DNA from: Gammaproteobacteria bacterium
GTDB taxonomy: Bacteria; Pseudomonadota; Gammaproteobacteria; Eutrophobiales; Eutrophobiaceae
Length of the DNA: 64,000 nt
Direction of reading: 5' to 3'
Assembly (NCBI GenBank): GCA_965221455.1
Contig: OZ244890.1
Span: 2,238,507 to 2,302,506, forward strand
Shown here piece by piece: positions 7,499 through 30,100 of the stretch (positions are counted from its first letter, which is position 1; each line of letters opens with the position of its first letter). The notes under the pieces are model-generated. The model saw only the letters and a list, made by a program, of their open reading frames with translations, ran no database searches and was not told the origin of the DNA. Made by a program: the position numbers and the translations under genes.

Positions 7499-10400
7499 AT
7501 GAACAAAATAATTTCACCTATTGCCATTGATATGGGGGCGAAGAATACGGGGGTTTATCTTCAGCATTTTGAGCAAGGAGAAGATCCAACTACCAGCGGT
7601 AATAGTGCCGGGCGGACCATTGTGATTGACGGCGACAGTATTACCTGGTCACAGGTGAATAGAACACAGAAACGTCACCAGGTTAGAGGTAACAAAAGAC
7701 GCAAACTTGCCAAACGCTTGCTGCTGGTAATTCTAGGCAAATCTTATGGTATCTCCCCCACACGAGAGCAAGCAGATTTTCTGATGGGATTGATGAATCG
7801 GCGCGGTTATAACCGTTTAGTTGAGGACCTGGACGAGAAACTGATAAAACAACCCCTGGTTGCAGAGTATTTTGTAAAAAAACATGAGGATTTTTTCAAA
7901 AATCGCGATACCTTTTTCGATAATTTTATTGCATTGTCAAATGACATTGAAAAATGCAAAGCCCTCAAAGAGCAACTTATATTGTCGAAAAAAGAGGCAA
8001 AAAAAGCAGTAGATGACGACAAAGATGGTCAACAAGCATTCGCTGATGCGTATGACAACATGAAATCCGCTTTAGACAAGCAGATTAAGTCTGAAGATGA
8101 AGGGCACAAGCACCGTGAGGAGTATCTGAAAAATATCAAAAAGGATATTCAGGAGAATAGCTTACTCAATCCACTACTGAATGATGAATTAACCGCTGAA
8201 TGTATCGCTAATCTCATTGGTAACATCAGTAATTTACAGTTGCGGGTGTTGCGTAAATACTTTAATGACAAGCAGATGCAAAACAGTGATAAATGGCTAC
8301 CACAGAAACTGCATAAATTATTTTTCCGATGGATTCAAGGCTGGCACTGTAAGCAAGATGATGAAAAAGAGAAGCGTAATAAACTGTTGAAATTAAAGCA
8401 GCAGGATATTTTGAAAATTCTAGCCACATCTGCGCCTGAACTGACTATTCCACCCTACGAAGACCAGAACAACCGCATCAAGGAGACCATTAAGGATAAA
8501 ACCTTAAGGCTGAAACCATCTGCATTGGATAAGAAAATGAATAACTGGCTGGATATGACTCAAAAGATTGTGAAGCACTACTGTCTTCCGACTGACGACA
8601 GCCGTACTACAACTTTATTTTCTATCAATGAAAATATCGAGGACTGCACTCATAAAATGATACAAGGGGTATTAGATGATTATGAAAGCCGGAAATCAGC
8701 CAATATACTGCAAAGAATATTCGACCGGAGCAAATTCCTGGATCCTTACAAATTAAGGTTGTTATGTTCTCTTGATTCTTTAGAGCATGCCAAAGATGAC
8801 GCCAGGAAATCTTTGACCTTGTTAAAGCAACATATCGGTGACAACAATGCGCAAGCATTTATTTCACTTTGCAAATCCTACTATGCAGAAACAGAAATCG
8901 CCAGGCAGGGGTTGTGGTCAGATAACAAAGACAGTTTATTTTTTTGTTGCGACACCAATCCGCCACACAAAAGCAAGCTGCAACACAGGCTGGTCGGACA
9001 TATTGTTTGTAAAACACTATCAGAACCCGAATTAGAATCTTTCAAAAAAGATTGCTGGAGTGAAAAAATAACAGGCGCAAGGAAAACAGCCAAAAGCGTG
9101 GCAAAAAGCATAGAAGAAATTCGTAAAAAATACGGTAACGAATTTAATGATGTAATGAAAAGGATTAAACGCAGGGAATATGTGCTGAAAAGCAAACCCG
9201 AGGAAATTACAGAACAGCAAAAAAAAGGATGGGAAAAATATGAAGAAAAACATAAGAATGTAAAAACAGCGATTGAGGATGCTGCAAAAGTCGCTACACA
9301 TATCGCTGATTATTTCGAGCATGACGACGACAAGAAAGCGAAGTATGCTAACCCGTACAGCATTGCACAGTTGTACAACCATCTGGAAACGGATATTGGT
9401 GGATTCAGCAAAACCGATAGATATAACACCGAAGAAAATGCCTGGCGGAATGAAATCAGTGAAGAAATCCCTGAAAATAAAATTGCCAACGCGGTAAGAC
9501 TAACAAAAGACAGTGTACGCCCGTTTGATGGCATGTTGGGTCGCATACTGGAAAGGCAGGCATATGAAATCGCTCGGCATAAAATTGTTCAACTTGAAGG
9601 GTTGGGGATTGGTGAAAGTGGAGAAATGCTTATCCCCGTATTACTGGAACAAAATAAGTTTAAATTTGAAAAGAGTCTGCACGATATCAAAGGCGAAAAA
9701 AATGTTTCAACAAAAGCAAAAGACCGAGTCGAAGAAGGCGAGAAAAGACAACAAGAACAATGGGAAGATAAAGATAAACGGATCAAAGGAAATAAAATAT
9801 GTCCGTACACTGGCGAAACAATCGGTGTCGGCGAAATCGATCATATCATTCCTCAAGCTAAATCCAGGCAGCATGGCGATGTGGTATACAACTCCGAGGC
9901 TAATCTGCTTTATTGCTCGGGCAGGGGCAATCAAGAAAAAGGAGACAATAGATATTCTTTCGAGCAGTTAAATAGTGAGTATTTGCGAGAAGTTTTTGGT
10001 AATAAAAGTCCAGGAGACATAAAGCAGGAAATCCGACAGTTCATTAACAACCTGGATACAGATAATTTTTCCGGTTTTCATAATCTGGAAAGCCACGAGC
10101 AGAACTATCTGCGCCATGCCTTGTTTCTGCAAGACCTGGATGAGAAAACTTTCCCGTTACTTAATACTCGCTATAGAACTTTGGTCAATGGCACACAAGC
10201 GTATCTGGCTAAACTATTGGTTCGCGTATTAAGAGGCAAATATCCGAATGCAGAGTTCAAGGTGTATCAGATGGATGCACAGGAAGTCTCCAGGGTTCGG
10301 GATGTGTTGTGTAATAAGTACGAAGAATATAAAAAATCCGATAAACAACAAGGTGCCTTTTCCCATGTAATTGATGCGGCTATGGTGCTGGCGACCGCGC

Positions 10401-11872
10401 TACAAAACCAACAAGTGGCGGAAAGGCTGAAGACAGTAAATACAGTCGAGTTATCGGAGAATGCAGACTGGTTAAAAAAATTGTTGCCACAGGAAGCAAT
10501 AGTCCAACACATCAAGAGGAGAGCAAAATATCATAAGGATTTATCATCAACAAAAATTTTCAAGGAGACTATTTATGGCGAGCGATTTATGCCTGTTCTA
10601 CTGAATGATGGCAAACTTTTTTGTGGTTTTTCTCTGGATAATTGTATTGAAATTAATCCATTGATTAAAGGAGGTAAGGACGAAAATAAAAAGATAGAAA
10701 AGCAAAAGCGCGAGGACAACGAATATTTCAATCTGTTGAAAGAATTTTTATACACGGGTTCCACTCGGCGCAAAAACAAGGCATCGGTCAGTGGAAGTTT
10801 AGATGACTACCATGGAAAGTTTGGTTATTTGTCGGTGGATAAAAGCAAAGCATTGGCGCATTTACAAAAATGCGCCAAAGAAGTATGTGATGACGAGGAT
10901 ATTAAACAAGCAGAAGCATTGGAGGAGCTACGGTATTGTGTTGAAAAGAAAAATATCAAAAACTTGATTACCGGTAAGAAATTTATTTCCCAAAGTGACT
11001 TTGACAAATTTAAATTCGATATAGACGATATCACATTACCCGCTAAAGTAGATTGGGAAAGATTAATCAATTTTCCAGTCATAGACTGCCACGGTAAAAC
11101 CACCACAATGAAAACATGTTTCAGAGAACCGGCACAAGACTTTATTCCCCAGAAAAGTTGGGATAATTTATTCGAAGAATTTTTCCATACAAATAAAATG
11201 GAAAATTCAAACCATCATAAACGAGTACGAAAAGTATATTCCTTGCCGGTTATCTCCAGTCCATCAGGTGGGTTCAGAATCAAGCGAAAAAATCCCGTGA
11301 CCGGTGATGATGTCTATCAAGTAAGTGCCATTGAAAATAGTTACGCTTGTGGTTTTTCTCAAGATTCCGAAGGCAATATTGACATGAGCGAAAAAGGGAT
11401 TACTTTTGATCCTCAATTAAAATCCAGTGCTAATGTTGCCTATCTCGGGAAATCCGGCAAACCGCATATTGTGAAAAATTCGAATGATACCGATGTAGAA
11501 AAATTTGGTTCCTGCAGACGGGTAAATTTAGAGTCTGAGCATATTATGGAATGCAAGCTGACATTGGCAGAAGGTAAGCGGATTGATATTTCTATTATGG
11601 TTGGTAAATATCTCTTTAAGGAAATATGCGAATTTTCAGATATCAATTTTGACCAACCACCATCAAATCTTCAATTAGTATTTGAAGATGAAACAAAATG
11701 TAAGAAGTTTAAGCAACTATTGACAAAGAAAAAAATACCAATCCCAAGAATAGATAAGAATAAGGTGGGATTTGCTGTTCAATCCTTACCAAAAAAAGTA
11801 GAATTATCGTATCGAACATCTCTCACTGATCCTCTTCGAGACGCTTATAAATGCGGGGATCCGGTAACGTAG
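7499..11872 (+). CDS. cas9: Type II-B CRISPR-associated endonuclease Cas9
   Basis: 1457 aa. RuvC-I IAIDMGAKNTGV (Asp11, nt 7529-7531). Arg-rich bridge helix RTQKRHQVRGNKRRKLAKRLL. RuvC-II IPVLLEQNKF. HNH GEIDHIIPQAKS...NSEANLLYCSGRGNQEKGD (His782, nt 9842-9844). RuvC-III FSHVIDAAMV. Blocks LIGNISNLQLRVLRKYFNDK, TIPPYEDQNNR, VNGTQAYLAKLL and RKVYSLPVISS match Francisella novicida Cas9 as I recall it. Strong SD GGAAGGAAG upstream. Followed by cas1-cas2-cas4. Confidence 0.95.
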   Translation: MNKIISPIAIDMGAKNTGVYLQHFEQGEDPTTSGNSAGRTIVIDGDSITWSQVNRTQKRHQVRGNKRRKLAKRLLLVILGKSYGISPTREQADFLMGLMNRRGYNRLVEDLDEKLIKQPLVAEYFVKKHEDFFKNRDTFFDNFIALSNDIEKCKALKEQLILSKKEAKKAVDDDKDGQQAFADAYDNMKSALDKQIKSEDEGHKHREEYLKNIKKDIQENSLLNPLLNDELTAECIANLIGNISNLQLRVLRKYFNDKQMQNSDKWLPQKLHKLFFRWIQGWHCKQDDEKEKRNKLLKLKQQDILKILATSAPELTIPPYEDQNNRIKETIKDKTLRLKPSALDKKMNNWLDMTQKIVKHYCLPTDDSRTTTLFSINENIEDCTHKMIQGVLDDYESRKSANILQRIFDRSKFLDPYKLRLLCSLDSLEHAKDDARKSLTLLKQHIGDNNAQAFISLCKSYYAETEIARQGLWSDNKDSLFFCCDTNPPHKSKLQHRLVGHIVCKTLSEPELESFKKDCWSEKITGARKTAKSVAKSIEEIRKKYGNEFNDVMKRIKRREYVLKSKPEEITEQQKKGWEKYEEKHKNVKTAIEDAAKVATHIADYFEHDDDKKAKYANPYSIAQLYNHLETDIGGFSKTDRYNTEENAWRNEISEEIPENKIANAVRLTKDSVRPFDGMLGRILERQAYEIARHKIVQLEGLGIGESGEMLIPVLLEQNKFKFEKSLHDIKGEKNVSTKAKDRVEEGEKRQQEQWEDKDKRIKGNKICPYTGETIGVGEIDHIIPQAKSRQHGDVVYNSEANLLYCSGRGNQEKGDNRYSFEQLNSEYLREVFGNKSPGDIKQEIRQFINNLDTDNFSGFHNLESHEQNYLRHALFLQDLDEKTFPLLNTRYRTLVNGTQAYLAKLLVRVLRGKYPNAEFKVYQMDAQEVSRVRDVLCNKYEEYKKSDKQQGAFSHVIDAAMVLATALQNQQVAERLKTVNTVELSENADWLKKLLPQEAIVQHIKRRAKYHKDLSSTKIFKETIYGERFMPVLLNDGKLFCGFSLDNCIEINPLIKGGKDENKKIEKQKREDNEYFNLLKEFLYTGSTRRKNKASVSGSLDDYHGKFGYLSVDKSKALAHLQKCAKEVCDDEDIKQAEALEELRYCVEKKNIKNLITGKKFISQSDFDKFKFDIDDITLPAKVDWERLINFPVIDCHGKTTTMKTCFREPAQDFIPQKSWDNLFEEFFHTNKMENSNHHKRVRKVYSLPVISSPSGGFRIKRKNPVTGDDVYQVSAIENSYACGFSQDSEGNIDMSEKGITFDPQLKSSANVAYLGKSGKPHIVKNSNDTDVEKFGSCRRVNLESEHIMECKLTLAEGKRIDISIMVGKYLFKEICEFSDINFDQPPSNLQLVFEDETKCKKFKQLLTKKKIPIPRIDKNKVGFAVQSLPKKVELSYRTSLTDPLRDAYKCGDPVT

Positions 11873-11900
11873 CGATTGTGTCTATGCCGACATATTCCCC

Positions 11901-12887
11901 ATGCACGCCCACCTAACCCTAAGCGAATACGGCCAGTTTGTTGGTATTCGCAGTGAATGTTTGACAGTCAAGGAAGAGGGAGCAGTCAAGGAATATCCGC
12001 TTAATCGCATCAAAAGCATCCAGATTGCACGGCGTGGGGTGAGTTTTTCTTCCGATGTCATTATTGCATGCGCCAATCGCGGTATTAAATTATTTCTCAC
12101 CGATTTCAGGAATGAAGTGGTCGCCAGCTTATCGGGCACTCAGCAACACGCTGTGGTGCGCGTGCGTCAACAGCAATTCGCCTTTATCGACCGCCTCGAT
12201 ACCGCGACTTTGTCTGCGGTGATTATTGAAGGAAAAATCAACAACCAACGAGCTGTTTTACTGTACTTCAAAAAATACCACAGTGATAAAGCCGCATACA
12301 TTGACAACACAGCAGCGCAATTAAAAATGATTGCCCAACAAATCAAAACCAAATCATGGCAAAACTTTGATCATTGGCAGGATATTTTATTGGGACTGGA
12401 GGGACAGGCAGCGCACCTTTACTGGCAATGTCTGGTCGAGACAGCCTTGATGCCCGCCGGCTTCAAGAACAGGGTAGGGAGGCAAGCACAGGATGTCGGT
12501 AACAAGGCGTTAAATTACGGTTATGCCATCCTTTCTTCCTACGTGTGGAATGCCTTGTTGAATGCCGGGCTGGAACCCTATGCCGGTATTTTCCATGCAC
12601 AACGTGCTGGCAAACCCTCTCTGGTACTGGACATGATGGAAGAATATCGTGCGTGGGCGGTAGATCGAAATATTATCAAACAACGTAACGCATTACAGGA
12701 CACCGGTGAGTTGACACCGACCATCAAGAAAAAAATCATTGCTGATATCCATAAAACCTTCGCCACCCATTACCATTATCGCAAGCGCAAGATGCGTTTG
12801 GAAAGCATACTACAACGACAAATCTATCATCTTGCCGGTACGTTCTGCGGCGACAAGCGATATAAAGCCTATCATTTCAGGTGGTAG
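11901..12887 (+). CDS. cas1: CRISPR-associated endonuclease Cas1
   Basis: 328 aa, 28 nt after the cas9 stop. Typical Cas1 N-terminal beta domain (LTVKEEGAVKEYPLNRIKSIQIARRGVSFSSDVI) and C-terminal helical domain (ALNYGYAIL, MEEYRAWAVD). Confidence 0.92.
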   Translation: MHAHLTLSEYGQFVGIRSECLTVKEEGAVKEYPLNRIKSIQIARRGVSFSSDVIIACANRGIKLFLTDFRNEVVASLSGTQQHAVVRVRQQQFAFIDRLDTATLSAVIIEGKINNQRAVLLYFKKYHSDKAAYIDNTAAQLKMIAQQIKTKSWQNFDHWQDILLGLEGQAAHLYWQCLVETALMPAGFKNRVGRQAQDVGNKALNYGYAILSSYVWNALLNAGLEPYAGIFHAQRAGKPSLVLDMMEEYRAWAVDRNIIKQRNALQDTGELTPTIKKKIIADIHKTFATHYHYRKRKMRLESILQRQIYHLAGTFCGDKRYKAYHFRW

Positions 12888-12888
12888 C

Positions 12889-13197
12889 ATGGCACAGGCG
12901 AAATTATACAATGAGGTACTGGTCAGTTATGACATCACCGATACCAAACAACGCACCAGGTTATTCAACCAACTCAAAGACATCAGCCTGATCGCAATCC
13001 AGAAATCGGTATTCTGGGGATATTTAAACAAGGCTGAGGAAAACAGTGTGAAACGCCTGTTACGAGAGCACTGTGAGAAAACCGACAAGGCTTTTATCGC
13101 ACGGGTTAAATTAGCCGAACAGATCCGGAAAGATAACGGGATTGGGTATAACAAAACCGACTTTCCGCAGAAAATCGCCGAGTATCATGTCCTATAG
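12889..13197 (+). CDS. cas2: CRISPR-associated endoribonuclease Cas2
   Basis: ATG at 12889, one nt after the cas1 TAG. 102 aa, MAQAKLYNEVLVSYDITDTKQRTRLFNQLKDISLIAIQKSVFWGYL is a Cas2 ferredoxin-fold signature. The longer track ORF (12739) overlaps cas1 and is not used. Confidence 0.85.
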   Translation: MAQAKLYNEVLVSYDITDTKQRTRLFNQLKDISLIAIQKSVFWGYLNKAEENSVKRLLREHCEKTDKAFIARVKLAEQIRKDNGIGYNKTDFPQKIAEYHVL

Positions 13198-13768
13198 TTT
13201 ACCTGTGAGTTTGCTCCGGCAATATTGTTTCTGCCCGCGCATTCCCTATTTTCAGGAGCTGCTTAATCTCAATCCACCCCGTCCGGCATGGGTCAGGCAG
13301 GGGGAGGCGTTACATCGTCAACAAGAGAAAGTATTCAGGCACAGAACCTTACAACGCTTCAATCTGGTACAGGCACGGCAAGAGTTCAATGTATTTGTTA
13401 ACGCCGCTGAATTACGTATGCACGGGTTGATTGATAGCGTGCTGATCACCCCGCATGAAATCTATCCGCTGGAATTCAAATTAAGCGGACACAAACCGAC
13501 TCGTGGACAAATCATACAACTCACCGCCTACGCGATGGCGGCCGAACACCACTATAACCTGGCTTGTCGGCATGGATTTATGTTGTTTGAGCACAAGGGT
13601 AAAACCCATCCGATTACTTTCACGGCAGAACATAAAGCACAGGTGAAGCGCATTCGTGACCGTATTTTGGATGATTTGGAGCAATCCGTTCTGCCGGATA
13701 GTTCCGCGACACAAGCGCAATGCACCCAGTGCGAATATCTCAATCATTGTAACGATAGAGGATGGTAA
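13187..13768 (+). CDS. cas4: CRISPR-associated exonuclease Cas4 (RecB-like, 4-Cys)
   Basis: Start chosen at ATG 13187 (MSYSLPVSLLRQYCFCPRIPYF), overlapping the cas2 end by 11 nt. N-terminal Cys plus C-terminal CTQCEYLNHC cluster and IYPLEFK nuclease motif. Presence of cas4 defines subtype II-B. Confidence 0.88.
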   Translation: MSYSLPVSLLRQYCFCPRIPYFQELLNLNPPRPAWVRQGEALHRQQEKVFRHRTLQRFNLVQARQEFNVFVNAAELRMHGLIDSVLITPHEIYPLEFKLSGHKPTRGQIIQLTAYAMAAEHHYNLACRHGFMLFEHKGKTHPITFTAEHKAQVKRIRDRILDDLEQSVLPDSSATQAQCTQCEYLNHCNDRGW

Positions 13769-13784
13769 AAGGATTTTGTGGGAG

Positions 13785-13810
13785 AAAATTAAAACCCCGC
13801 CAGAGCGGGG
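13785..13810 (-). terminator. Rho-independent terminator of tracrRNA
   Basis: CCCCGC-tctg-GCGGGG on the minus strand, followed by TTTTAATTTT. The plus strand has no T-run after the stem, so it is not the cas4 terminator. Confidence 0.75.
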
Positions 13811-13894
13811 CACCATGCACAATGCAGATAGGTTTATCAATCTTTATTTTAGATGATTTCAGTGCATCAATTGTTGTTTAGGATGTGTCGATGC
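13787..13894 (-). ncRNA. tracrRNA: tracrRNA (predicted)
   Basis: Plus-strand 13856-13891 (ATTTCAGTGCATCAATTGTTGTTTAGGATGTGTCGA) is an imperfect inverted copy of the array repeat. A minus-strand RNA therefore carries an anti-repeat to GUUUCAGUUGCUAGUUUGUUGAUUUAGGAUGUGUCGG: 7 bp, bulge, 2 bp, internal loop, 6 bp, bulge, 14 bp. Downstream on the minus strand are AAUCAUCUAAAAUAAAGAUUGA (resembles the F. novicida tracrRNA nexus) and a terminator hairpin. The ends are predictions. Confidence 0.8.
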
Positions 13895-14013
13895 CAAGCC
13901 AGCTTAATAAAAAAATTCGCAAAATTCAACCTTTCCCGGCATTTTCATGATTTTCGCAAAAATACCAAAAAAAATCGCTATAAAGTCAGGCAAAATCAAT
14001 ACTTCATGATAGG
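13895..14013. other. AT-rich cas-proximal flank of the CRISPR array (candidate acquisition leader)
   Basis: About 120 bp, A/T-rich with poly-A runs, directly abutting repeat 1. The opposite array end carries the degenerate repeat. Confidence 0.45.
13901..13929 (-). promoter_or_regulatory. Predicted sigma70 promoter of tracrRNA
   Basis: Minus strand TTGAAT (13924-13929), 17 nt spacer, TAAGCT (13901-13906). Predicted start about 13894, a few nt upstream of the anti-repeat. Confidence 0.55.
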
Positions 14014-17000
14014 CCGACACATCCTAAATCAACAAACTAGCAACTGAAACTGCTTATCGACTGAATAAGAAAAAAATAATCTTTCCCCGACACATCCTAA
14101 ATCAACAAACTAGCAACTGAAACTGGTTAGTCTTTTTGACGTGGACTCGTCCATTGCCTCCGACACATCCTAAATCAACAAACTAGCAACTGAAACGAGT
14201 CTGACCATCCGCCCTGCCAAACCTTCCACCTGTGCCGACACATCCTAAATCAACAAACTAGCAACTGAAACGGTCTTCGACAAGGAGCTGAACAGATTTA
14301 AGACTTCCGACACATCCTAAATCAACAAACTAGCAACTGAAACGAATCTCTGTAAGAGTAGCCGCACTCAAAAAACAAACCGACACATCCTAAATCAACA
14401 AACTAGCAACTGAAACCGTGAATATCATCATCACCCGTGATGAGTTTTTAGGACCGACACATCCTAAATCAACAAACTAGCAACTGAAACTCATGCAAGC
14501 TGGTAATCAATCAAAGTTCATGGACCGACACATCCTAAATCAACAAACTAGCAACTGAAACTTGGTTCCCACGTGTCAATCGCATCTATGATCAGCCGAC
14601 ACATCCTAAATCAACAAACTAGCAACTGAAACTTGTTTGGTGATGGCTGCAGCACTTGCCCCGACATCCGACACATCCTAAATCAACAAACTAGCAACTG
14701 AAACTCGGATCCCGGTAGTAGACTTTAACATCTCGTGTCCGACACATCCTAAATCAACAAACTAGCAACTGAAACAACACCGATCACATCACCATTAAAC
14801 TGCCCGTATCCGACACATCCTAAATCAACAAACTAGCAACTGAAACCTTGCAGACTGCTACGGAACCTGTCCCATGCGTTGCCGACACATCCTAAATCAA
14901 CAAACTAGCAACTGAAACCGCCCATGTCGAGATTGTGAGACTTGCATATAATAGCCGACACATCCTAAATCAACAAACTAGCAACTGAAACCTGGGTGAT
15001 GGATGAGGGTCACCACCTCTTACGCCGACACATCCTAAATCAACAAACTAGCAACTGAAACCACGGTCGTATATTTGCGGAGCTGAGGAAGCAGCCGACA
15101 CATCCTAAATCAACAAACTAGCAACTGAAACTTCGGGTAGATTTTCATGCAGGTTAATCATGCCCCGACACATCCTAAATCAACAAACTAGCAACTGAAA
15201 CTGCGCCTCTTGTTTTTTATCGCTCGTCGTTTATCCCGACACATCCTAAATCAACAAACTAGCAACTGAAACGTGTTCGTCCTGAAACTCTGAAAGTAAC
15301 TCAATGTCCGACACATCCTAAATCAACAAACTAGCAACTGAAACCTACTGACTATAATCGACAACCTCCCCTGTACTCCCGACACATCCTAAATCAACAA
15401 ACTAGCAACTGAAACAATTCCACTGCATTTCTAAAATCTGCTGGACTTCTCCGACACATCCTAAATCAACAAACTAGCAACTGAAACGGCTAAGTGGTTG
15501 GCATTGGGTTAAGCGTTTTGCACCGACACATCCTAAATCAACAAACTAGCAACTGAAACCAGCTACTACAATGCCAGGCAACCTGACCTTTAACCGACAC
15601 ATCCTAAATCAACAAACTAGCAACTGAAACCACGAAATGCCTCGCAAACTCTGCACATCTCTCAAACCGACACATCCTAAATCAACAAACTAGCAACTGA
15701 AACGTTGATGTTATTGTCTTAACGTCCATTAAATGAGTCCCGACACATCCTAAATCAACAAACTAGCAACTGAAACTTGTCATTGATTAAAGCCGTCTTC
15801 CCCCTGTGAGGCCCGACACATCCTAAATCAACAAACTAGCAACTGAAACCTGAACATCTCTTCATAACTTATCAACTTGCCTTCCGACACATCCTAAATC
15901 AACAAACTAGCAACTGAAACTGAGGTTTTTGTTGTCATGTTTTTGACTCAGCACCGACACATCCTAAATCAACAAACTAGCAACTGAAACAGAGGGTTAC
16001 CAATTCCCCCAAGGCCGCCCAAAACCGACACATCCTAAATCAACAAACTAGCAACTGAAACTGTAAACCCTTGAAAAAATTAAGTTAAATTTAAATCCGA
16101 CACATCCTAAATCAACAAACTAGCAACTGAAACTAATCGATTCGATATGTGTTTTGGTGAAAGTTGTGCCCGACACATCCTAAATCAACAAACTAGCAAC
16201 TGAAACCATGAACGTTCACTCTCAGAGGTCACCGGTTAGCACCCGACACATCCTAAATCAACAAACTAGCAACTGAAACAAACGGCCGTACAAGAAGCGC
16301 ATGTACTTGCCTGCCGACACATCCTAAATCAACAAACTAGCAACTGAAACTCACGAATATGACATCAGTCGTTACGGCGGTCGGTACCGACACATCCTAA
16401 ATCAACAAACTAGCAACTGAAACCAAAAATCCTGTTTGTCCGCACCTTATCCAAGTTTCCGACACATCCTAAATCAACAAACTAGCAACTGAAACTTCGC
16501 CGCCGGGATTTACTCAGATGATGATTACGTCCGACACATCCTAAATCAACAAACTAGCAACTGAAACACCGCCAGAAGAAAATCATGCTGGCGACAATTA
16601 CGCCGACACATCCTAAATCAACAAACTAGCAACTGAAACCAAAATATGCCGGATCGCGCATGAACCGCGCTGCACCGACACATCCTAAATCAACAAACTA
16701 GCAACTGAAACTTGAAAAAGAGCCGCCAGACAGCGAGATCCTATCTCCCGACACATCCTAAATCAACAAACTAGCAACTGAAACAACAAAGGCACTGTAA
16801 CCCTGTCCATTCGCCGACACCGACACATCCTAAATCAACAAACTAGCAACTGAAACTGAGTTTGATACCACAAGTCATTATGTCTAAGGCACCGACACAT
16901 CCTAAATCAACAAACTAGCAACTGAAACCAAGATACTTATGATTAGCAACGGTTGTATAGTATCCGACACATCCTAAATCAACAAACTAGCAACTGAAAC

Positions 17001-19016
17001 ACGGCAGAAAGCGTTTTAAAGTCGCCAGTACCAGTCCGACACATCCTAAATCAACAAACTAGCAACTGAAACTGGTCTAAAACTGCACGAAGCAATCTTA
17101 CATAGGTACCGACACATCCTAAATCAACAAACTAGCAACTGAAACGCAAATAAACAATGACTAAAAGTACCAGAAGGTAGCCGACACATCCTAAATCAAC
17201 AAACTAGCAACTGAAACAGGCGTTGAATTTGCTTTTCTAGTCGGTATTGAGGCCGACACATCCTAAATCAACAAACTAGCAACTGAAACGATGAGGCACA
17301 TTATCTGTACAATATCCTCCCCAGTCCGACACATCCTAAATCAACAAACTAGCAACTGAAACCTGACTACGCGGAGAAAGGCGCACAGATAGTAGTCCGA
17401 CACATCCTAAATCAACAAACTAGCAACTGAAACACAGTTTATACAAACGCAGAATACTGGGAGAATCACCCGACACATCCTAAATCAACAAACTAGCAAC
17501 TGAAACTGAACTTTTTTCATATCTATCACCTTTTTTAACTCCGACACATCCTAAATCAACAAACTAGCAACTGAAACTGAACCTTTTTCATCATCATCAC
17601 CTATTTTTAATTCCGACACATCCTAAATCAACAAACTAGCAACTGAAACGTGTGCCTTTCGTCTGTACCTGCCAGAAACTCGCCCGACACATCCTAAATC
17701 AACAAACTAGCAACTGAAACTCGAGCTGGCATCACACAAGTAAGTTCTTCAATGAGCCGACACATCCTAAATCAACAAACTAGCAACTGAAACAATGTGG
17801 TTAGGCTGGCTGATGGGAGCTATAAGACCGACACATCCTAAATCAACAAACTAGCAACTGAAACAAACTCGAAGCGTGGGCATTGCTTGCGCCGCCGAAC
17901 CGACACATCCTAAATCAACAAACTAGCAACTGAAACAGAGAATCCTCCCAGTACCCCGCTTAGAGGCAAGCCGACACATCCTAAATCAACAAACTAGCAA
18001 CTGAAACTGGTCTAACACTGCACGAAGCAATCTTACATAGGTCCGACACATCCTAAATCAACAAACTAGCAACTGAAACTGGAAGTGCTTCACAGCTTCA
18101 CAGGCGAGAGGGTTTCCCGACACATCCTAAATCAACAAACTAGCAACTGAAACTCCTAGTGGCGGAGCAATTAGATACCGACAACCGCTCCGACACATCC
18201 TAAATCAACAAACTAGCAACTGAAACTCCGCTGTTGTTGATCCGGTTGTGACTTCTGCACGGCCGACACATCCTAAATCAACAAACTAGCAACTGAAACA
18301 CAGCGACTGAGCCGGGGGTTTCAGTGCCTTGGCGCCGACACATCCTAAATCAACAAACTAGCAACTGAAACTTTAGGTCGATATAAGAGTATTGAAAATC
18401 TCGAAACCGACACATCCTAAATCAACAAACTAGCAACTGAAACTTTTAAGTTTAAATTAATCCCTATAACACCAACCACCGACACATCCTAAATCAACAA
18501 ACTAGCAACTGAAACTCTCCATACTCGGTAGTGTCATCTTGCATTTCGTCCGACACATCCTAAATCAACAAACTAGCAACTGAAACTTTTATAGTTCTGC
18601 TCAAAATAAGCCGGATCACGCCCGACACATCCTAAATCAACAAACTAGCAACTGAAACTTCACTTTATTCATCAAGCCTTCAAAAGTAACCCCCGACACA
18701 TCCTAAATCAACAAACTAGCAACTGAAACGGTCAAAGGCATCACCGCCGCGTGAGAGTTTACCCCCCGACACATCCTAAATCAACAAACTAGCAACTGAA
18801 ACTGAAATTGCCCCCGATGCTTTGGTTGTAGAAGCTCCCGACACATCCTAAATCAACAAACTAGCAACTGAAACCGGGACAAATAAACCAATGCACATCT
18901 TAACAGTACCGACACATCCTAAATCAACAAACTAGCAACTGAAACCCAGTCACTCATCATGAGCCTGTTCATAAATCTGCCGACACATCCTAAATCAACA
19001 AACTAGCAACTGAAAC
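14014..19016 (-). CRISPR. CRISPR array, 70 identical 37-nt repeats with 69 internal spacers of 33-38 nt (type II-B repeat)
   Basis: Plus-strand repeat CCGACACATCCTAAATCAACAAACTAGCAACTGAAAC. Repeat starts were tallied by hand from 14014 to 18980 with unit period 70-75 bp, and I noticed no repeat variants. The minus-strand form GTTTCAGTTGC... matches the 5-prime end of the F. novicida crRNA repeat and pairs with the predicted tracrRNA, hence minus strand. Confidence 0.97.
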
Positions 19017-19050
19017 GCGGACACTTGACATCTATTCAAGTTAAAAAAGA

Positions 19051-19087
19051 GCGACATATCTGAAATAAAAAAAGCCCCGCATCAGCG
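19051..19087. repeat. Degenerate terminal CRISPR repeat
   Basis: GCGACATATCTGAAATAAAAAAA matches 17 of the first 23 repeat positions, and the last 14 positions (GCAACTGAAAC part) are lost. It is separated from repeat 70 by a 34-nt spacer (19017-19050) and overlaps the terminator hairpin. Confidence 0.7.
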
Positions 19088-19098
19088 GGGCTTTTTTT
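19065..19098. terminator. Bidirectional Rho-independent terminator
   Basis: AAAAAAA-GCCCCGC-atca-GCGGGGC-TTTTTTT. A symmetric A/T run on both sides lets it terminate the minus-strand lipoprotein gene and any plus-strand read-out of the array. Confidence 0.8.
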
Positions 19099-19190
19099 AC
19101 TAATGACAAATCTCAACCTAACAAATCAGCAAGGTTTCCCATGTGTATGTCATGTAAGGTTTGTATGTACACATACTGCAAGGAAATACA

Positions 19191-19472
19191 CTATTTCCTC
19201 ATTGCTTTTTCAAACATGCGATCAAGTTTCGCAGTGTTATCGTTACAGCATTCCAGTGCCGTGGTTGAATTTGACTTGGCCTCTGCAGCAGCTGAGTTCG
19301 CCTCATTTGCAACTGACAGTGCGTTATTAGCGGTAGCGGAAGCTGAACGTGCTTCAGCAAGTGCCGCATCAGCTGTTGCCTGAAGCGCATCTATTCGAGA
19401 CATGTCAGCACAGCCGCCGACGATGGCCATGGCAAATGCCAGCGTGAAAATTTTAGTGATTTTTACCAACAT
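19191..19472 (-). CDS. OprI/Lpp-like alanine-zipper outer membrane lipoprotein
   Basis: Start taken at MLVKITKIFTLAFAMAIVGGC (lipobox VGGC). Ala-rich coiled coil and C-terminal RMFEKAMRK resemble Pseudomonas OprI (RMLEKASRK). Confidence 0.75.
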   Translation of the reverse strand: MLVKITKIFTLAFAMAIVGGCADMSRIDALQATADAALAEARSASATANNALSVANEANSAAAEAKSNSTTALECCNDNTAKLDRMFEKAMRK

Positions 19473-19623
19473 AGTTTCGTTCTCCCGTTGAGTCATTGTA
19501 CCAGTATGAGGCAGTTCAAATTTCTCATGCGCGGATGATGACTTATTTCACATGTGATATCAATTATTTTATCCCGCAAACGGATGTGGTTTTGAGATAC
19601 GACGACAGTTAACATCAGGGAAA

Positions 19624-19998
19624 TTAACGACGGTTTTTTGCAGGAGACTTTTTCATTCTCTTTTCATGGTTCTCCCTGATAAAACTAGCCAGCGATTGTT
19701 CAAAAGGTAGAATTGGTTTTAAATCGCAGTAATCATCCAGCCAGGCCAGAATATCGTCAAGATTCATTTCTCCGGCAATCCTGTAAGTATCGGGTAGTTG
19801 TACGTTGAAAGCGGTTAAATAACCCATGATATAGTCTTTATATCCTTGTTCTTCTTCAGTGTCTCTGGAGATATTATAGCTATGACAAGATTTATTACCT
19901 TTACCCCATATCGCGAAGTGACCGTTACTGTCAACTGCCTGCGATTGCAACGGGAACATGGCGGATAAAAACAAAATACTATATAGATGCCTGGTCAT
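19624..19998 (-). CDS. Secreted hypothetical protein
   Basis: 124 aa with signal peptide (LQSQA/VD) and two Cys. No family recognised with confidence. Confidence 0.5.
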   Translation of the reverse strand: MTRHLYSILFLSAMFPLQSQAVDSNGHFAIWGKGNKSCHSYNISRDTEEEQGYKDYIMGYLTAFNVQLPDTYRIAGEMNLDDILAWLDDYCDLKPILPFEQSLASFIRENHEKRMKKSPAKNRR

Positions 19999-20235
19999 TC
20001 AGATAACCTCTTTATTCATTGATTCCTGTGTAACGCTGGTAATGTATTGCGTGGACTGATACACAAAGAACCGGATTTTTGTATTTATTGAGTTGTATAG
20101 TTGAGACTTAAAATCGTTCTTTTAATTCCCTTGTTATCCTGACAACTTTTCAGCACATACGCCGCAGAATATGGCAAATACCAAAGTCACCAATCCACCC
20201 CGCGAGCGCATACAGGTGTAAAGGTGGCTCGCCAC

Positions 20236-26654: not shown

Positions 26655-26850
26655 ATTCCCCTCCCCCTTACCAGGGGGAGAGCTTTTGATACGGGACACT
26701 CTTTTACTGTCACTACACAATGCAGGTTGTAGTGGTCCAGTATGGCATGTGATAGTAATAGGTAGACTATAATTTGGACATGAGGAAGCATCAAATGCTG
26801 ACAAAAACACGTAAACACACCACCCCACTGGTGCTTGTGCAACAAGCACC
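26655..26850 (+). mobile_element. IS3-family left-end remnant with truncated orfA N-terminus
   Basis: G/C palindrome CCCTCCCCCTTACCAGGGGGAG, TTTTACTGTCACT (26702) and TGTAGTGGTC (26728-26737) recur at 30952/30988 in front of a recognisable IS3 orfA. The short reading frame here, MLTKTRKHTTP, parallels MTKERKHFTP of that orfA. Confidence 0.55.
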
Positions 26851-26851
26851 A

Positions 26852-27095
26852 GCACCGCAGCACCGCAGCACCGCAGCACCGCAGCACCGCAGCACCGCAG
26901 CACCGCAGCACCGCAGCACCGCAGCACCGCAGCACCGCAGCACCGCAGCACCGCAGCACCGCAGCACCGCAGCACCGCAGCACCGCAGCACCGCAGCACC
27001 GCAGCACCGCAGCACCGCAGCACCGCAGCACCGCAGCACCGCAGCACCGCAGCACCGCAGCACCGCAGCACCGCAGCACCGCAGCACCGCAGCAC
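26852..27095. repeat. Perfect octanucleotide microsatellite (GCACCGCA) x30 plus a partial unit
   Basis: 30 uninterrupted 8-bp units at 26852-27091 plus GCAC. All six frames are open across it, which explains the pile of repetitive ORFs in the track. It ends 58 nt before the ATG of the large secreted protein. Confidence 0.97.
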
Positions 27096-27153: not shown

Positions 27154-30100
27154 ATGACGGCAGTCATGGCCGCCGTTGCCCTGCTGGCGGTATTGGCAAG
27201 CCCGGCGGCACGGGCGCAATCCGATGACTGGGGCGAATGGAGTACGGCGAATATCACCGACAAGAACCAGACACGCACCTGTAATGCCGGGACGGGCAAC
27301 ACGTGTATGAATGCCTACGGGGGCGGCACCACCAACCACGGCGGCACCGAGACCCGTCCGAGTCTGACCTTTTGGAATAACTATCTCCTCAACGGCCCGG
27401 CTGGGCATACCAATGCGACGGAAAGAAGAGGCGGGGTTGACGTCACAGGCGTAACCATCTCCCGCAACAACAGCGATGGTCGACTACAAGTCCAGAGTGT
27501 TATTTCTGGGAGCGGCTCCATTGACCCCCCATCTCTATTCATCACAACCGGGCAGGCGACCCCGAGCACCGGCACACTCTTACGGTTCGGCGAACAAAGT
27601 ATTATAGACCTGAAGTCCGGACTGTCCCGTCCGAACCTCACATGGGTGCCTATCTCGGGGGATGGCAGGGTGATTTACCGTCCGTCCGTCGGCACCGAGA
27701 TGGTCTTATTGGAGACTTTATGTACCGCCAGCGGTGATTTAAGGGTGCGCTCGGGGCAAACCAGCGACACCGAACAAACCGTACAAGCCAACTCGTTGCT
27801 GTGCAATATCGGGGCGAGTGCCTCGGCAATCACCAGGCAAGCCATCGGTGAACTGAGTGCCACCGATAACTATATTTATACTAATAACTGGGGCGACTGG
27901 AGTGCGGGCAATATCAACGACAAGAACCAGACGCGCACCTGTAATGCCGGGACGGGCAACACGTGTGTCAATTTCTACACTAGAGGCACCACCAACCACG
28001 GGGGCGCCGAGGCCCGTCCGAGTGAGACCTTTTGGGAGAACTATCTCCTCAACGGCCCGGCCGGGTATACCAATGCGACGGAGGCAAACGGTGTAGACAT
28101 CACAAGCATGACATTCGCCCGCAACAACGACGATGGTCGGCTGGGATTAAGGGCGATCGGAGTCTCCGGCATCTCAAACTATTTACCTATTGAATACATC
28201 ACTACCGAGCAGGTGACCCCAAGTACCGGAATACTGTTCACGGTAACAGGCGCTGGCTTGAATATAACCCTCAAGTCCGGCCTGACCCGTCCGAACCCCT
28301 CATGGACCGCTATCCCGGGGCCGGGCGTCTTGTTTTACCGACCGTCCGCCAACAACGCGGTGGTCTTGGTGGACACTTCATGTACCGCCACCGGTGATTT
28401 AAGGGTCCGCTCGGGGACCACGTCCGGCACCGAACGCACCGTACAAGCCAACTCGCTGCTGTGCAATACCGGAGCGAGTGCCGCAGCCATCACCAGGCAA
28501 GCCATCGGTGAACTGAGTGCCGCCGACAACTATATTTATTCCGCAGATGGCTGGGACGACTGGAGTGCGGCCAATATCACCGACAAGAACCAGACACGCA
28601 CCTGTAATGCCGGGACGGGCAACACTTGTCCCAATGCCTACGGCAGCACCACCACCAACCACGGCGGCACCGAGACCCGTCCGAGTGAGACCTTCTGGCG
28701 CAACTATCTCGTCAACGGCCCGGCCGGGCATACCAATGCGACAAACTACGGTAGTGATGACATCACAAGCGTGGTACTCACCCGCAATAACAGCGATGGT
28801 CGGCTGCAATTAACGGGCATTGATACCACTGGCGGCACAGTCACGCTTACAACCCCTCGATTCATCACAACTGGGCGAGAGACCCCGAATAGCGGAACAC
28901 TGTTCGTGACAGGCCCTACCAATATAGTCCTGAAGTCCAACCTGTCCCGTCCGAACCTCTCATGGACCGCTATCCCGGGATCGGGAATCGTGTTTTACCG
29001 ACCATCCGGCAGCAACAGGGTGCGCTTATTGGACAGTTCATGTACCGCCAGCGGTGATTTAAGAGTGCGCTCGGGGACCACGACCAACACCGAACAAACC
29101 GCACAAGCCAACTCGCCGCTGTGCAATATCGGAGCGAGTGTCGCAGCCATCACCAGGCAAGTCATCGGTGAACTGAGTGCCACCGACAACTATATTTATG
29201 CGGTGCCCGCGACATTAGGTGCCATCCAGGACAGTACCCCCAACACCCCGGCCAGGGTCGATGATATCTTGACCGCCGGTGCGCTGAGCCATCCCACGTT
29301 GACCGTCAATATCAACGCCCATCAATGGCAACGCTGTACCACTCAAGACTGTAGCAACGCAACAGATATCAGCCAGAATGGCACAGCAGCGACCTACGCG
29401 GTGCAAGCGGCGGACCATGCTCACTGGCTGCGGGTGCGTGTCACTCAGGGCGGGGATTTCAACGACACCCTGTTCTCCAATAGCGTACAGGTTGACCGTG
29501 GCGGTGTGCTCGGTCCCATCACCGGCAATGCCAGAGCAGGCGGCACGCTGACGGCGGGCGCGGTCACCGACGCGGACGCCTCACCGAATACCGATGTCGG
29601 TACCATTACCTGGCAATGGCAGACAGCGACCGTCTCGGCGGGTCCGTTTACCGCCGCACCGGGGACGAATAATACCGCCACGTACACGATTGCATCAGAC
29701 CAATCACAGATAGGCACGTGGTTGCGCGTGATGGCGAGTTATCCGAATGCGGGAGGCGATAGCCTGACGTCCGACCCGGTAGTGGTTGCGGGTGTGCGGG
29801 TGTCGCCGACCGCGCTGAATGTCACCGAAGGGGGTGACAGCACCAGCTATACCCTGATGCTGGGCAGCCGACCGACAGGGCCGGTAACGCTGACCGTGAC
29901 CAATCCCGATGCCACTGCGGTGACCCTCAGTGCCACCTCACTGACGTTTACCACAGACAACTGGAACAGTGCCCGGACGGTGACGGTGAGTAGTGTTGAG
30001 GATACGGATACAGACCACGAGACCGTGCAACTCACGCATACGGCGACAAGTACGGACCCTGGCTACAATGGGGCTGCTGTGACGATAGACTCCGTGGCTG

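What the first reader, a model, noticed from the sequence alone, without database searches (positions are those of the whole stretch)
13785..13929. tracrRNA located from sequence alone; it implies the array is read antisense to the cas operon
13856-13891 is an imperfect inverted copy of the repeat. Only on the minus strand does it have a promoter-like TTGAAT-17-TAAGCT upstream and a GC hairpin plus T-run downstream (13785-13810). The resulting RNA of about 108 nt pairs with the minus-strand form of the repeat (GUUUCAGUUGC...), which is also the form used by F. novicida crRNA. crRNAs must therefore come from the minus strand, converging on cas4. The segment after the anti-repeat (AAUCAUCUAAAAUAAAGAUUGA) resembles the Fn tracrRNA nexus, which gives a direct sgRNA design.
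Basis: partly seen in the sequence, partly recalled or inferred. Interest (0 to 1): 0.7.

Follow-up and report, generated by a model that had tools for sequence, protein, structure and literature searches.

The report
Type II-B CRISPR tracrRNA gene, antisense
The short stretch between cas4 and the CRISPR array does encode the helper RNA (tracrRNA) that Cas9 needs, read on the opposite strand to the cas genes; this is correct but is the standard layout of this CRISPR subtype, so it is an ordinary new member rather than a discovery.

Summary
The window carries a type II-B CRISPR-Cas locus: cas9/csx12, cas1, cas2, cas4, then 70 identical 37-nt repeats. An imperfect inverted repeat copy lies at 13857-13890. 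It is the best pairing partner of the repeat in the 64 kb (-40.2 kcal/mol).

Only the minus strand gives a proper tracrRNA. It has the anti-repeat at the 5' end, a structured tail, and a GC hairpin plus T-run at 13811-13787.

A covariance model built from 11 distant II-B loci, without the window, hits the window once. The hit is at 13870->13812 on the minus strand (37.5 bits, E 3e-8). In 29 loci every hit is antisense to cas9, between cas4 and the array. Anti-repeats co-vary with their own repeats, and the 3' hairpin shows compensatory changes.

Published RNA-seq for Francisella novicida shows the same antisense arrangement.

Weak points are a promoter below consensus (though conserved in position), no identifiable array promoter, and no expression data.

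In passing, I found a near-palindromic motif pair at fixed distances from the array in all 25 II-B loci. It may be a leader signal.

The parts
13787..13894 (-). Predicted tracrRNA gene, about 108 nt. The 5' end is inferred at 13894 +/- 3, and the 3' end lies in the T-run at 13793-13787.
   Evidence: The promoter geometry and terminator are read. The predicted fold has three hairpins. The covariance model hit lies at 13870->13812 on the minus strand, 37.5 bits, E 2.8e-8.
13857..13890 (-). Anti-repeat, which pairs with the crRNA-sense repeat GUUUCAGUUGCUAGUUUGUUGAUUUAGGAUGUGUCGG. The duplex is interrupted by an internal loop of 4 x 5 nt.
   Evidence: Local alignment score is 42, against 28 for the next hit in the window. 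The duplex energy is -40.2 kcal/mol. Own-versus-cross duplex energies across 25 loci average -38.0 versus -20.0.
13846..13862 (-). Conserved junction CUGAAAUCAUCUAAAAU, covering the end of the duplex and the AU-rich nexus region. CUGAAAUC is invariant in the 22 aligned relatives.
   Evidence: Alignments A2 and A3 show the conservation. The Francisella FtrA fragment matches at 17 of 21 positions.
13812..13857 (-). Tail hairpins. SL1 is CAUCU-AAAAUAA-AGAUUG (13857-13836). SL2 is ACC-UAUC-UGCA-UUG-UGCA-U-GGU (13833-13812) and is homologous to the conserved CUGY...RCAU hairpin of II-B tracrRNAs.
   Evidence: Covariation of that hairpin was 94.9% paired with 0 of 500 shuffles reaching it on the unfitted alignment, and 99.1% paired with 78 double-change cells over 29 loci.
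13787..13811 (-). Intrinsic terminator: GCCCCGC-TCTG-GCGGGGT followed by UUUUAAUUUU. It works on the minus strand only.
   Evidence: The terminator scan reports it. The plus-strand reading shows no T-run after the hairpin.
13901..13929 (-). tracrRNA promoter candidate: TTGAAT, 17 nt, TAAGCT. The conserved motif ATTTTGCGAATTT (13925-13913) lies in its spacer.
   Evidence: The sequence is read. It falls below the scan threshold. Its position is conserved, with TATAAT in L006, L016 and L024.
13950..13964 (-). Second, upstream copy of the near-palindromic motif (TATTTTTGCGAAAAT). It could be a second promoter, an operator, or a leader signal.
   Evidence: The alignment is. Fixed distances of 60-64 nt and 97-102 nt from the repeat edge in 25 of 25 loci are shown.
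14014..19016 (-). CRISPR array: 70 identical 37-nt repeats and 69 spacers of 33-38 nt. The functional crRNA sense is inferred to be the minus strand.
   Evidence: Repeats and spacers are. Orientation comes from tracrRNA geometry and from homology.
7499..13768 (+). cas operon: cas9/csx12 (7499-11872), cas1 (11901-12887), cas2 (within 12739-13197) and cas4 (13142-13768).
   Evidence: NCBIfam gives TIGR03031 at 491 bits (cut-off 399), TIGR00287, TIGR01573 and TIGR00372. PDB Cas9 chains 8umf and 9ko9 match at E 2e-153, and FnCas9 5b2o at E 1e-52.

Best explanation
The segment 13787-13894 on the minus strand is the tracrRNA gene of a type II-B CRISPR-Cas9 system.

Mechanism, by homology with characterised type II systems:
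- A small RNA of about 105-110 nt starts a few bases upstream of the anti-repeat and ends at the intrinsic terminator.
- Its 5' anti-repeat pairs with each repeat of a pre-crRNA transcribed from the minus strand of the array, that is, antisense to and converging on the cas operon.
- Cas9 binds the duplex together with the conserved CUGAAAUCA junction and the 3' hairpins.
- RNase III cuts the duplex, and the trimmed crRNA:tracrRNA pair guides Cas9 to DNA.

Shown here: the sequence elements, the pairing, the strand-specific structure and terminator, membership of a conserved II-B tracrRNA family, co-evolution with the repeat, and compensatory changes in the tail hairpin.

Inferred: transcription itself, the exact 5' end, RNase III processing, and where pre-crRNA transcription starts.
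For: - Locus type: Cas9/Csx12, Cas1, Cas2 and Cas4 are all above curated cut-offs, and the repeats are 37 nt.
- The anti-repeat is the best repeat partner in the window.
- The minus-strand RNA folds into three hairpins ending in a terminator (-25.4 kcal/mol, z -1.5). The plus-strand alternative is less structured than its shuffles (z +2.2) and has no terminator.
- Model R1, built from 11 loci whose Cas9 is only about 30-35% identical to the window's, hits the window once, on the minus strand, at E 2.8e-8. The next hit has E 0.42.
- All 29 hits in related loci are antisense to cas9 and lie between cas4 and the array.
- Own repeat:anti-repeat duplexes average -38.0 kcal/mol against -20.0 for cross pairs. 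The own pair ranks first in 20 of 25 loci.
- Hairpin covariation is strong.
- Literature: the F. novicida array is transcribed opposite to the cas operon, its tracrRNA is about 80 nt and lies next to the array, and II-B repeats are 37 nt (PMC3737331). The F. novicida repeat, read in the cas sense, ends in ACTGAAAC (PMC4607530).
- The Francisella FtrA fragment matches the window junction at 17 of 21 positions and pairs with the Fn repeat.
Against: - There are no expression data.
- The -10 element (TAAGCT) matches only 3 of 6 consensus positions, so the promoter scan does not list this promoter.
- No sigma-70-like promoter for the array was found on either strand. A strong terminator of the neighbouring gene lies only 53 nt from the cas-distal repeat, so the source of minus-strand pre-crRNA is unexplained.
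- Duplex energy alone cannot choose the strand (-40.2 versus -38.1).
- No Rfam family matches. This is expected, because Rfam has no II-B tracrRNA model.
- The outer stem of SL2 is only 3 bp in the window, against 5-7 bp in relatives.
Confidence: 0.9

Rival explanations
1. The tracrRNA and the array are both read on the plus strand, in the same direction as the cas operon. The segment 13856-13891 would then act as a plus-strand anti-repeat.
For: The plus-strand RNA of the same segment pairs with the plus-strand repeat almost as well (-38.1 kcal/mol). The AT-rich interval 13930-14013 sits where a conventional leader or promoter would be. Degenerate repeats lie at the cas-distal end in nine relatives, which by the usual rule would mark that end as the trailer.
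Against: - Downstream of the anti-repeat, the plus strand has no structured tail and no terminator (z +2.2).
- The covariance model hits only the minus strand, here and in 28 other loci.
- The crRNA would then begin with CCGACAC instead of the GUUUCAG 5' repeat end used by F. novicida.
- RNA-seq in F. novicida shows antisense array transcription (PMC3737331).
Confidence: 0.03
2. The inverted repeat copy is a non-functional relic, either an orphan inverted repeat or part of the array leader. The hairpin would be merely the terminator of a neighbouring transcript.
For: There are no expression data, and the promoter matches the consensus only weakly.
Against: The element is conserved in position, strand and structure across 29 loci from several phyla. 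The anti-repeat tracks each locus's own repeat and the tail hairpin shows compensatory changes. That pattern implies selection on the RNA. A type II system also cannot work without a tracrRNA, and no other candidate exists in the window.
Confidence: 0.03
3. The tracrRNA is real but its main form is longer. It would start at an upstream promoter associated with the first motif copy (about 13935-13945) or arise by read-through from the array. That would give a long form of about 150 nt, comparable to the long tracrRNA forms of S. pyogenes and N. meningitidis.
For: A second copy of the promoter-spacer motif, followed by an A/T-rich -10-like stretch (CATGAAAAT in the window, CATAAAAAT in L003-L006), lies about 37 nt upstream. 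There is no terminator between the array and the tracrRNA on the minus strand. Two primary forms are documented for S. pyogenes and N. meningitidis (PMC3737331).
Against: F. novicida shows a single primary form of about 80 nt. In distant relatives the upstream copy lacks a recognisable -10 at a constant place.
Confidence: 0.2

Closest known systems
Francisella novicida U112 type II-B tracrRNA (also FtrA of F. tularensis; scaffold of the FnCas9 sgRNA, PDB 5B2O)
   Same: - The locus order is the same: cas9-cas1-cas2-cas4, then the tracrRNA, then the array.
- The tracrRNA and array are antisense to the cas genes (PMC3737331).
- The repeat is 37 nt and starts GUUUCAGUUGC in the crRNA sense.
- The junction ...AAUGCUCUGUAAUC matches the window's ...GAUGCACUGAAAUC, with 17 of 21 positions identical over the fragment.
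- A GCGAAAA motif lies upstream of the gene.
   Different: Cas9 is distant: only the C-terminal 60% aligns, at E 1e-52, and the window's protein is 1457 aa against 1629 aa. The window's lower stem is fully paired (CUGAAAU against GUUUCAG), whereas Francisella has a U-U mismatch. The window carries a separate GC-rich terminator hairpin. No scaRNA-like degenerate repeat was seen in the window.
II-B loci of sulfur-oxidising and sponge symbionts (Ca. Thiodubiliella, Bathymodiolus symbionts, Ca. Spongiihabitans; loci L003-L006, L016, L024)
   Same: These have the nearest Cas9 proteins, at 50-56% identity. The tracrRNA core CUGAAAUCAUCUAAAAUAAA is identical. SL1 (CAUCU/AGAUG) is the same in L003-L005. 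The promoter layout is the same, and the repeats are similar.
   Different: The repeats differ at 8-10 positions, with matching changes in the anti-repeat. In L006, L016 and L024, SL2 also serves as the terminator. No spacers are shared beyond one 12-nt word with L004.
Parasutterella secunda PsCas9 (type II-B) and its engineered sgRNA
   Same: It is the same subtype. Its tracrRNA was found by the same in-silico route, a search for an extra degenerate repeat on both strands, and was then fused into a working sgRNA (PMC10482872).
   Different: PsCas9 has been validated biochemically (NGG PAM). Nothing has been tested for the window's system.
Type II-C arrays (Neisseria meningitidis, Campylobacter jejuni)
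   Same: The array is transcribed convergently with, and antisense to, the cas operon. The degenerate repeat sits at the end where transcription begins (PMC3737331; PMC4607530). [quoted passage not shown]
   Different: II-C lacks cas4, has 36-nt repeats, and places the tracrRNA elsewhere. Promoters embedded in repeats are proven for II-C only; for II-B this is an untested lead.
Streptococcus pyogenes tracrRNA (type II-A; the Rfam tracrRNA family)
   Same: The function and overall plan are the same: a 5' anti-repeat, a nexus, 3' hairpins and a terminator.
   Different: There is no detectable sequence or structure match. No Rfam family was hit in 13000-20000 even at E up to 10. In II-A the array and tracrRNA orientation relative to the cas genes is also different.

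Membership tests
Type II-B CRISPR-Cas locus | Long Cas9 of the Csx12 type | tested here: met
   TIGR03031 (cas_csx12) scores 491.4 bits against a cut-off of 399.4. Named relatives are annotated as II-B Cas9/Csx12.
Type II-B CRISPR-Cas locus | Adaptation genes cas1, cas2 and cas4 downstream of cas9, with no csn2 | tested here: met
   TIGR00287, TIGR01573 and TIGR00372 all score above their cut-offs, in the order cas9-cas1-cas2-cas4.
Type II-B CRISPR-Cas locus | 37-nt repeats | tested here: met
   There are 70 identical 37-nt repeats. The 37-nt length is given as typical of II-B in PMC3737331.
tracrRNA (type II trans-activating crRNA) | An anti-repeat able to pair with the array repeat, located in an intergenic region of the locus | tested here: met
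   The duplex energy is -40.2 kcal/mol, the best site in the window. It lies between cas4 and the array.
tracrRNA (type II trans-activating crRNA) | The anti-repeat co-evolves with the cognate repeat | tested here: met
   Own versus cross duplex energies average -38.0 versus -20.0 kcal/mol over 25 loci, and the own pair ranks first in 20 of 25.
tracrRNA (type II trans-activating crRNA) | A structured 3' tail ending in a Rho-independent terminator, on the strand that places the anti-repeat at the 5' end | tested here: met
   The minus-strand fold and terminator are shown. The plus strand fails this test.
tracrRNA (type II trans-activating crRNA) | Its own promoter | tested here: inconclusive
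   TTGAAT-17-TAAGCT is present but falls below the scan threshold. The position is conserved and relatives carry TATAAT there.
tracrRNA (type II trans-activating crRNA) | Expression, co-processing with pre-crRNA by RNase III, and a requirement for Cas9 activity | not testable with these tools
   This needs RNA-seq, northern blots or biochemistry.
II-B tracrRNA sequence/structure family (model R1, built here from 11 loci without the window) | A significant match to the covariance model, on the strand antisense to cas9, between cas4 and the array | tested here: met
   The hit scores 37.5 bits at E 2.8e-8, at 13870->13812 on the minus strand, and is the only significant hit. The same placement holds in 28 other loci.
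Rfam tracrRNA family (type II-A based) | A match to the Rfam covariance model | tested here: not met
   No tracrRNA hit was found in 13000-20000 at E up to 10. This is consistent with the known lack of conservation between subtypes (PMC3737331).
Arrays with repeat-embedded promoters (as in type II-C) | A -10 box near the 3' end of each repeat that drives crRNA transcription | tested here: inconclusive
   TAGGAT occupies positions 25-30 of the crRNA-sense repeat. A TAnnnT starts at position 24-27 in 23 of 26 distinct II-B repeats (25 occurrences). In the window there is no good -35 or TG extension, and the scan finds no promoter. Transcription starts are untested.

The most novel reading that the evidence does not exclude
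The interval between the tracrRNA and the array (13895-14013) may be more than a promoter. It may be the functional leader for spacer integration in type II-B systems.

It carries two copies of a near-palindromic motif, TT(N)CG(N)AA. They lie 60-64 nt and 97-102 nt from the cas-proximal repeat edge, that is, 37 nt apart, which equals the repeat length. This holds in all 25 II-B loci examined, across several phyla. Degenerate or truncated repeats occur only at the opposite, cas-distal end.

If this reading is right, II-B arrays acquire spacers at the cas-proximal end but are transcribed towards it, possibly from -10-like boxes inside the repeats. The tracrRNA promoter would then be embedded in the integration signal, which would couple adaptation and expression. 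I could not check whether this motif pair has already been described; the most likely source, Santiago-Frangos et al. 2021, is not held in the library.
Probability: 0.3. Interest if true: 0.55.

Novelty: new member of a known kind. Interest (0 to 1): 0.22.

Why it matters
For this genome, the result completes the annotation of a large type II-B system with 69 spacers that looks active. It gives the crRNA orientation needed to interpret the spacers, and the RNA parts needed to reconstitute a Cas9 of 1457 aa that is only 50-56% identical to its nearest relatives.

For the field it adds nothing conceptually. The location of the tracrRNA, its antisense orientation and the antisense array are established features of type II-B.

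The comparative set assembled here may have wider value. It comprises 29 loci, a working covariance model and a conserved motif pair at fixed distance from the array. These could help annotate II-B tracrRNAs, which Rfam does not cover, and they point to a testable leader or regulatory signal.

Tried and rejected
- **Rfam.** A scan of 13000-20000 at E up to 10 gave no tracrRNA family. The only hits were terminator-driven weak matches at 19020-19180.
- **Protospacers, to fix orientation from the PAM side.** The whole array gave nothing against phages (only a terminator-like 32-nt match) or plasmids. Spacers against the rest of the window and 38 loci gave only 14-19-nt chance matches.
- **Metagenome scans.** Searches for the exact repeat and for the tracrRNA core found nothing, so no close strain was available to read spacer polarity.
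- **Spacer sharing.** Sister loci (L003/L004, L006/L024, L002/L008, L009/L010) share no spacers. One shared 12-mer between the window and L004 is within chance expectation.
- **RNAalifold.** On the raw MAFFT alignment of 22 tails it returned no structure, because indels shift the register. I therefore specified the hairpin by hand on an in-register subset and then used the model alignment.
- **Promoter scans of the array and both flanks.** These found no usable candidate.
- **Degenerate repeat remnant.** The candidate at the cas-distal end of the window (19075->19052) is in the right register, but on its own it is not significant (p about 0.14).
- **Motif upstream of cas9.** It is absent there, which argues against a shared cas9/tracrRNA operator.
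- **Text search for the Fn sgRNA scaffold.** This failed. Only the repeat and the FtrA primer fragments could be verified.
- **Contig L001.** Its Cas9 fragment is 95% identical to the window's. The contig has low coverage, its cas9 is called as several separate gene fragments, and it ends without a detected array or tracrRNA hit.

Full report
**What is in the window.** The finding lies in a complete type II-B CRISPR-Cas locus. On the plus strand, ORFs at 7499-11872, 11901-12887, 12739-13197 and 13142-13768 match Cas9/Csx12, Cas1, Cas2 and Cas4. The scores are TIGR03031 at 491 bits (cut-off 399), TIGR00287, TIGR01573 and TIGR00372. The Cas9 matches solved Cas9 chains 8umf and 9ko9 at E 2e-153, and FnCas9 (5b2o) at E 1e-52 over its C-terminal part. 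From 14014 to 19016 there are 70 identical 37-nt repeats, CCGACACATCCTAAATCAACAAACTAGCAACTGAAAC on the plus strand, with spacers of 33-38 nt. The nearest Cas9 relatives are 50-56% identical. They come from sulfur-oxidising mussel and sponge symbionts and other uncultured Gammaproteobacteria.

**Checking the observation.**
- On the minus strand, 13890->13857 is an imperfect copy of the cas-sense repeat, with 31 of 37 positions identical.
- As RNA it pairs with the minus-strand form of the repeat at -40.2 kcal/mol. The duplex has a 4 x 5 nt internal loop. It is the best such site on the minus strand of the window; the next best is -30.1.
- Upstream on the same strand lie TTGAAT (13929-13924), 17 nt, and TAAGCT (13906-13901).
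- Downstream lie a 7-bp GC hairpin (13811->13794) and the tract TTTTAATTTT.
- The hairpin acts as a terminator on the minus strand only, because on the plus strand it is followed by CACCATGC.
- The promoter is weak by consensus (-10 matches 3 of 6) and the scan does not list it.

**Which strand.** Duplex energy cannot decide, since the plus-strand reading gives -38.1 kcal/mol. What lies after the anti-repeat does decide. The minus-strand RNA 13897->13787 folds into two small hairpins and the terminator (-25.4 kcal/mol, z -1.5). The plus-strand alternative 13850-13960 is less structured than shuffled sequence (z +2.2) and has no terminator.

**Comparative evidence.** I fetched 37 loci that encode relatives of this Cas9.
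- In all 24 loci with a detectable array, the repeat read in the cas sense ends in ACTGAAAC or a near variant, so the GUUUCAG... form is antisense to cas9.
- In all 24, an anti-repeat lies on the minus strand about 120-165 nt before the array.
- Repeats and anti-repeats co-evolve. Each repeat pairs with its own locus's anti-repeat at a mean of -38.0 kcal/mol, against -20.0 for foreign ones. The own partner ranks first in 20 of 25 loci, and second or third behind near-identical sisters in the rest.
- Downstream of the anti-repeat, all loci share an invariant CUGAAAUC junction and a hairpin with a CUGY...RCAU core.
- On an unfitted alignment of 11 distant loci, that hairpin is 94.9% paired, with 7 of 9 pairs showing changes on both sides. 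No shuffle out of 500 reached this, and it collapses when the partners are slid.

**The model test.** A covariance model built from those 11 loci, without the window, finds exactly one significant site in the window. It lies at 13870->13812 on the minus strand, with 37.5 bits and E 2.8e-8; the next hit has E 0.42. Across all 39 sources the model gives 29 hits, one per locus. Every hit is antisense to cas9, and each examined lies between cas4 and the array. On that model-fitted alignment the hairpin is 99.1% paired, with 78 double-change cells. The window's version has a short 3-bp outer stem followed by a separate GC-rich terminator. In the closest symbiont loci the hairpin itself serves as the terminator.

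**Comparison with what is known.** Chylinski et al. 2013 (PMC3737331) reported several matching points:
- II-B repeats are 37 nt.
- II-B anti-repeats lie next to the array.
- In F. novicida the array is transcribed opposite to the cas operon.
- The F. novicida tracrRNA is a primary transcript of about 80 nt, on the strand with decreasing coordinates.

The F. novicida repeat is CTAACAGTAGTTTACCAAATAATTCAGCAACTGAAAC in the cas sense (PMC4607530), so its crRNA also starts GUUUCAGUUGC. Primers for the F. tularensis sRNA FtrA (PMC3091763) turn out to carry the Francisella anti-repeat. The fragment GTACCAAATAATTAATGCTCTGTAATC pairs with the Fn repeat and matches the window's AACAATTGATGCACTGAAATC at 17 of 21 positions.

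Faure et al. 2018 (PMC6546382) catalogued II-B tracrRNAs. They noted weak hybrids (median -28.9 kcal/mol) and AU-rich, unstable nexus regions, and the window fits that description. PsCas9, another II-B enzyme, was equipped with a working sgRNA after the same in-silico anti-repeat search (PMC10482872). The finding is therefore a correct application of a known procedure to a known architecture, and it yields a new member.

**What remains open.**
- No promoter for the array is recognisable on either strand.
- On the cas-distal side, a strong terminator of a small lipoprotein-like gene ends only 53 nt before the first repeat in the crRNA sense.
- The 5' end of the tracrRNA is inferred, and a longer form from an upstream start cannot be excluded.
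- A naive sgRNA (repeat 1-14, GAAA, anti-repeat and tail) misfolds in its minimum-energy structure, although the centroid keeps the intended lower stem.
- No protospacers were found and no close strains were found. Neither the PAM nor spacer polarity could be read.

**Things noticed beyond the finding.**
- Aligning the tracrRNA-array intervals of 25 loci shows two copies of a near-palindromic motif, TT(N)CG(N)AA. In the window these are TATTTTTGCGAAAAT at 13964-13950 and ATTTTGCGAATTT at 13925-13913.
- The copies lie 60-64 nt and 97-102 nt from the cas-proximal repeat edge in every locus. The motif is about 30-fold denser in that interval than elsewhere in the loci, and it is absent upstream of cas9.
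- The second copy fills the spacer of the tracrRNA promoter. Its distance to the tracrRNA core varies between 33 and 61 nt, while its distance to the repeat is fixed.
- Degenerate or truncated repeats occur only at the cas-distal end, in 9 of 25 loci.
- A TAnnnT box starts at position 24-27 of the crRNA-sense repeat in 23 of 26 distinct II-B repeats (25 occurrences), including published ones.
- Together these hints suggest that II-B arrays, like II-C arrays, may be transcribed towards their acquisition end, and that the tracrRNA promoter lies inside the leader. This is a lead, not a result.

**Verdict.** The element is the tracrRNA of a type II-B system, read antisense to the cas operon as in all characterised and predicted II-B loci. 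Confidence is 0.9. It is a new member of a known kind, and interest is low (0.22).

Noticed in passing
window 13913-13925 and 13950-13964 (minus-strand reading); same interval in L002-L037: Two copies of a near-palindromic motif TT(N)CG(N)AA (in the window, TTTTGCGAA in both) lie 60-64 nt and 97-102 nt from the cas-proximal repeat edge in all 25 II-B loci with arrays, across several phyla. The two copies are 37 nt apart, which equals the repeat length. The motif is about 30-fold enriched over the rest of the loci and absent upstream of cas9. One copy fills the spacer of the tracrRNA promoter. It could be a leader or integration signal, or an operator.
   Followed up: partly
window 14014-19016 (each repeat, positions 25-30 in the crRNA sense): A -10-like TAnnnT (TAGGAT in the window) starts at position 24-27 of the crRNA-sense repeat in 23 of 26 distinct II-B repeats (25 occurrences), including F. 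novicida (TGGTAAACT), Wolinella and Sutterella. This recalls the repeat-embedded promoters of type II-C. There is no good -35, and transcription starts are untested.
   Followed up: partly
window 19017-19075; cas-distal ends of L002, L013, L018, L021, L027, L031, L033, L034, L037: Truncated or degenerate repeat copies occur only at the cas-distal end, which is the upstream end in the crRNA sense. In the truncated copies it is the 3' part of the repeat that is kept. The window has a weak remnant, GCTTTTTTTATTTCAGATATGTCG, one spacer length (35 nt) before the first full repeat. It is not significant on its own (p about 0.14).
   Followed up: partly
window 19017-19500: A strong bidirectional-looking terminator, AAAAAAAGCCCCGCTGATGCGGGGCTTTTTTT (about 19070-19100), ends a small lipoprotein-like ORF (19496-19191, minus strand) only 53 nt from the array. 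It leaves almost no room for a conventional pre-crRNA promoter. It is also the source of all the weak Rfam hits.
   Followed up: partly
window 26850-27095: A perfect 8-bp tandem repeat, (CAGCACCG) x 31, lies in the intergenic region about 60 bp upstream of a 1211-aa secreted repeat protein (27154-30789). It is a candidate slipped-strand phase-variation tract.
   Followed up: no
window 30458-30770: A 168-bp tandem duplication (90% identical) lies at the 3' end of the same large gene. It encodes two copies of a DVDGSGGDPNQSDGLLLGRYLFGIRD... module.
   Followed up: no
L011, L014, L018, L020, L021, L027, L031 (tracrRNA 5' parts): In a subgroup of distant II-B loci the anti-repeat is interrupted by an extra small hairpin (for example CACCUGCGGGUG) immediately 5' of GCUGAAAUC. 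It looks like an insertion inside the repeat:anti-repeat duplex region of the tracrRNA.
   Followed up: no
literature: PMC3091763 primers (F. tularensis ftrA): The sRNA FtrA, described in 2010 in F. tularensis, carries the Francisella anti-repeat and the tail CTCTGTTTGACACGTCTGAATAAC. It therefore appears to be the type II-B tracrRNA under an older name.
   Followed up: partly
L001 (ENA contig, 15.3 kb, 3x coverage): This is the only close relative of the window found. Its Cas9 fragment is 95% identical and it has the same upstream genes (RND pump, L,D-transpeptidase). Its cas9 is called as several separate gene fragments, and the contig ends without a detected array or tracrRNA hit.
   Followed up: no
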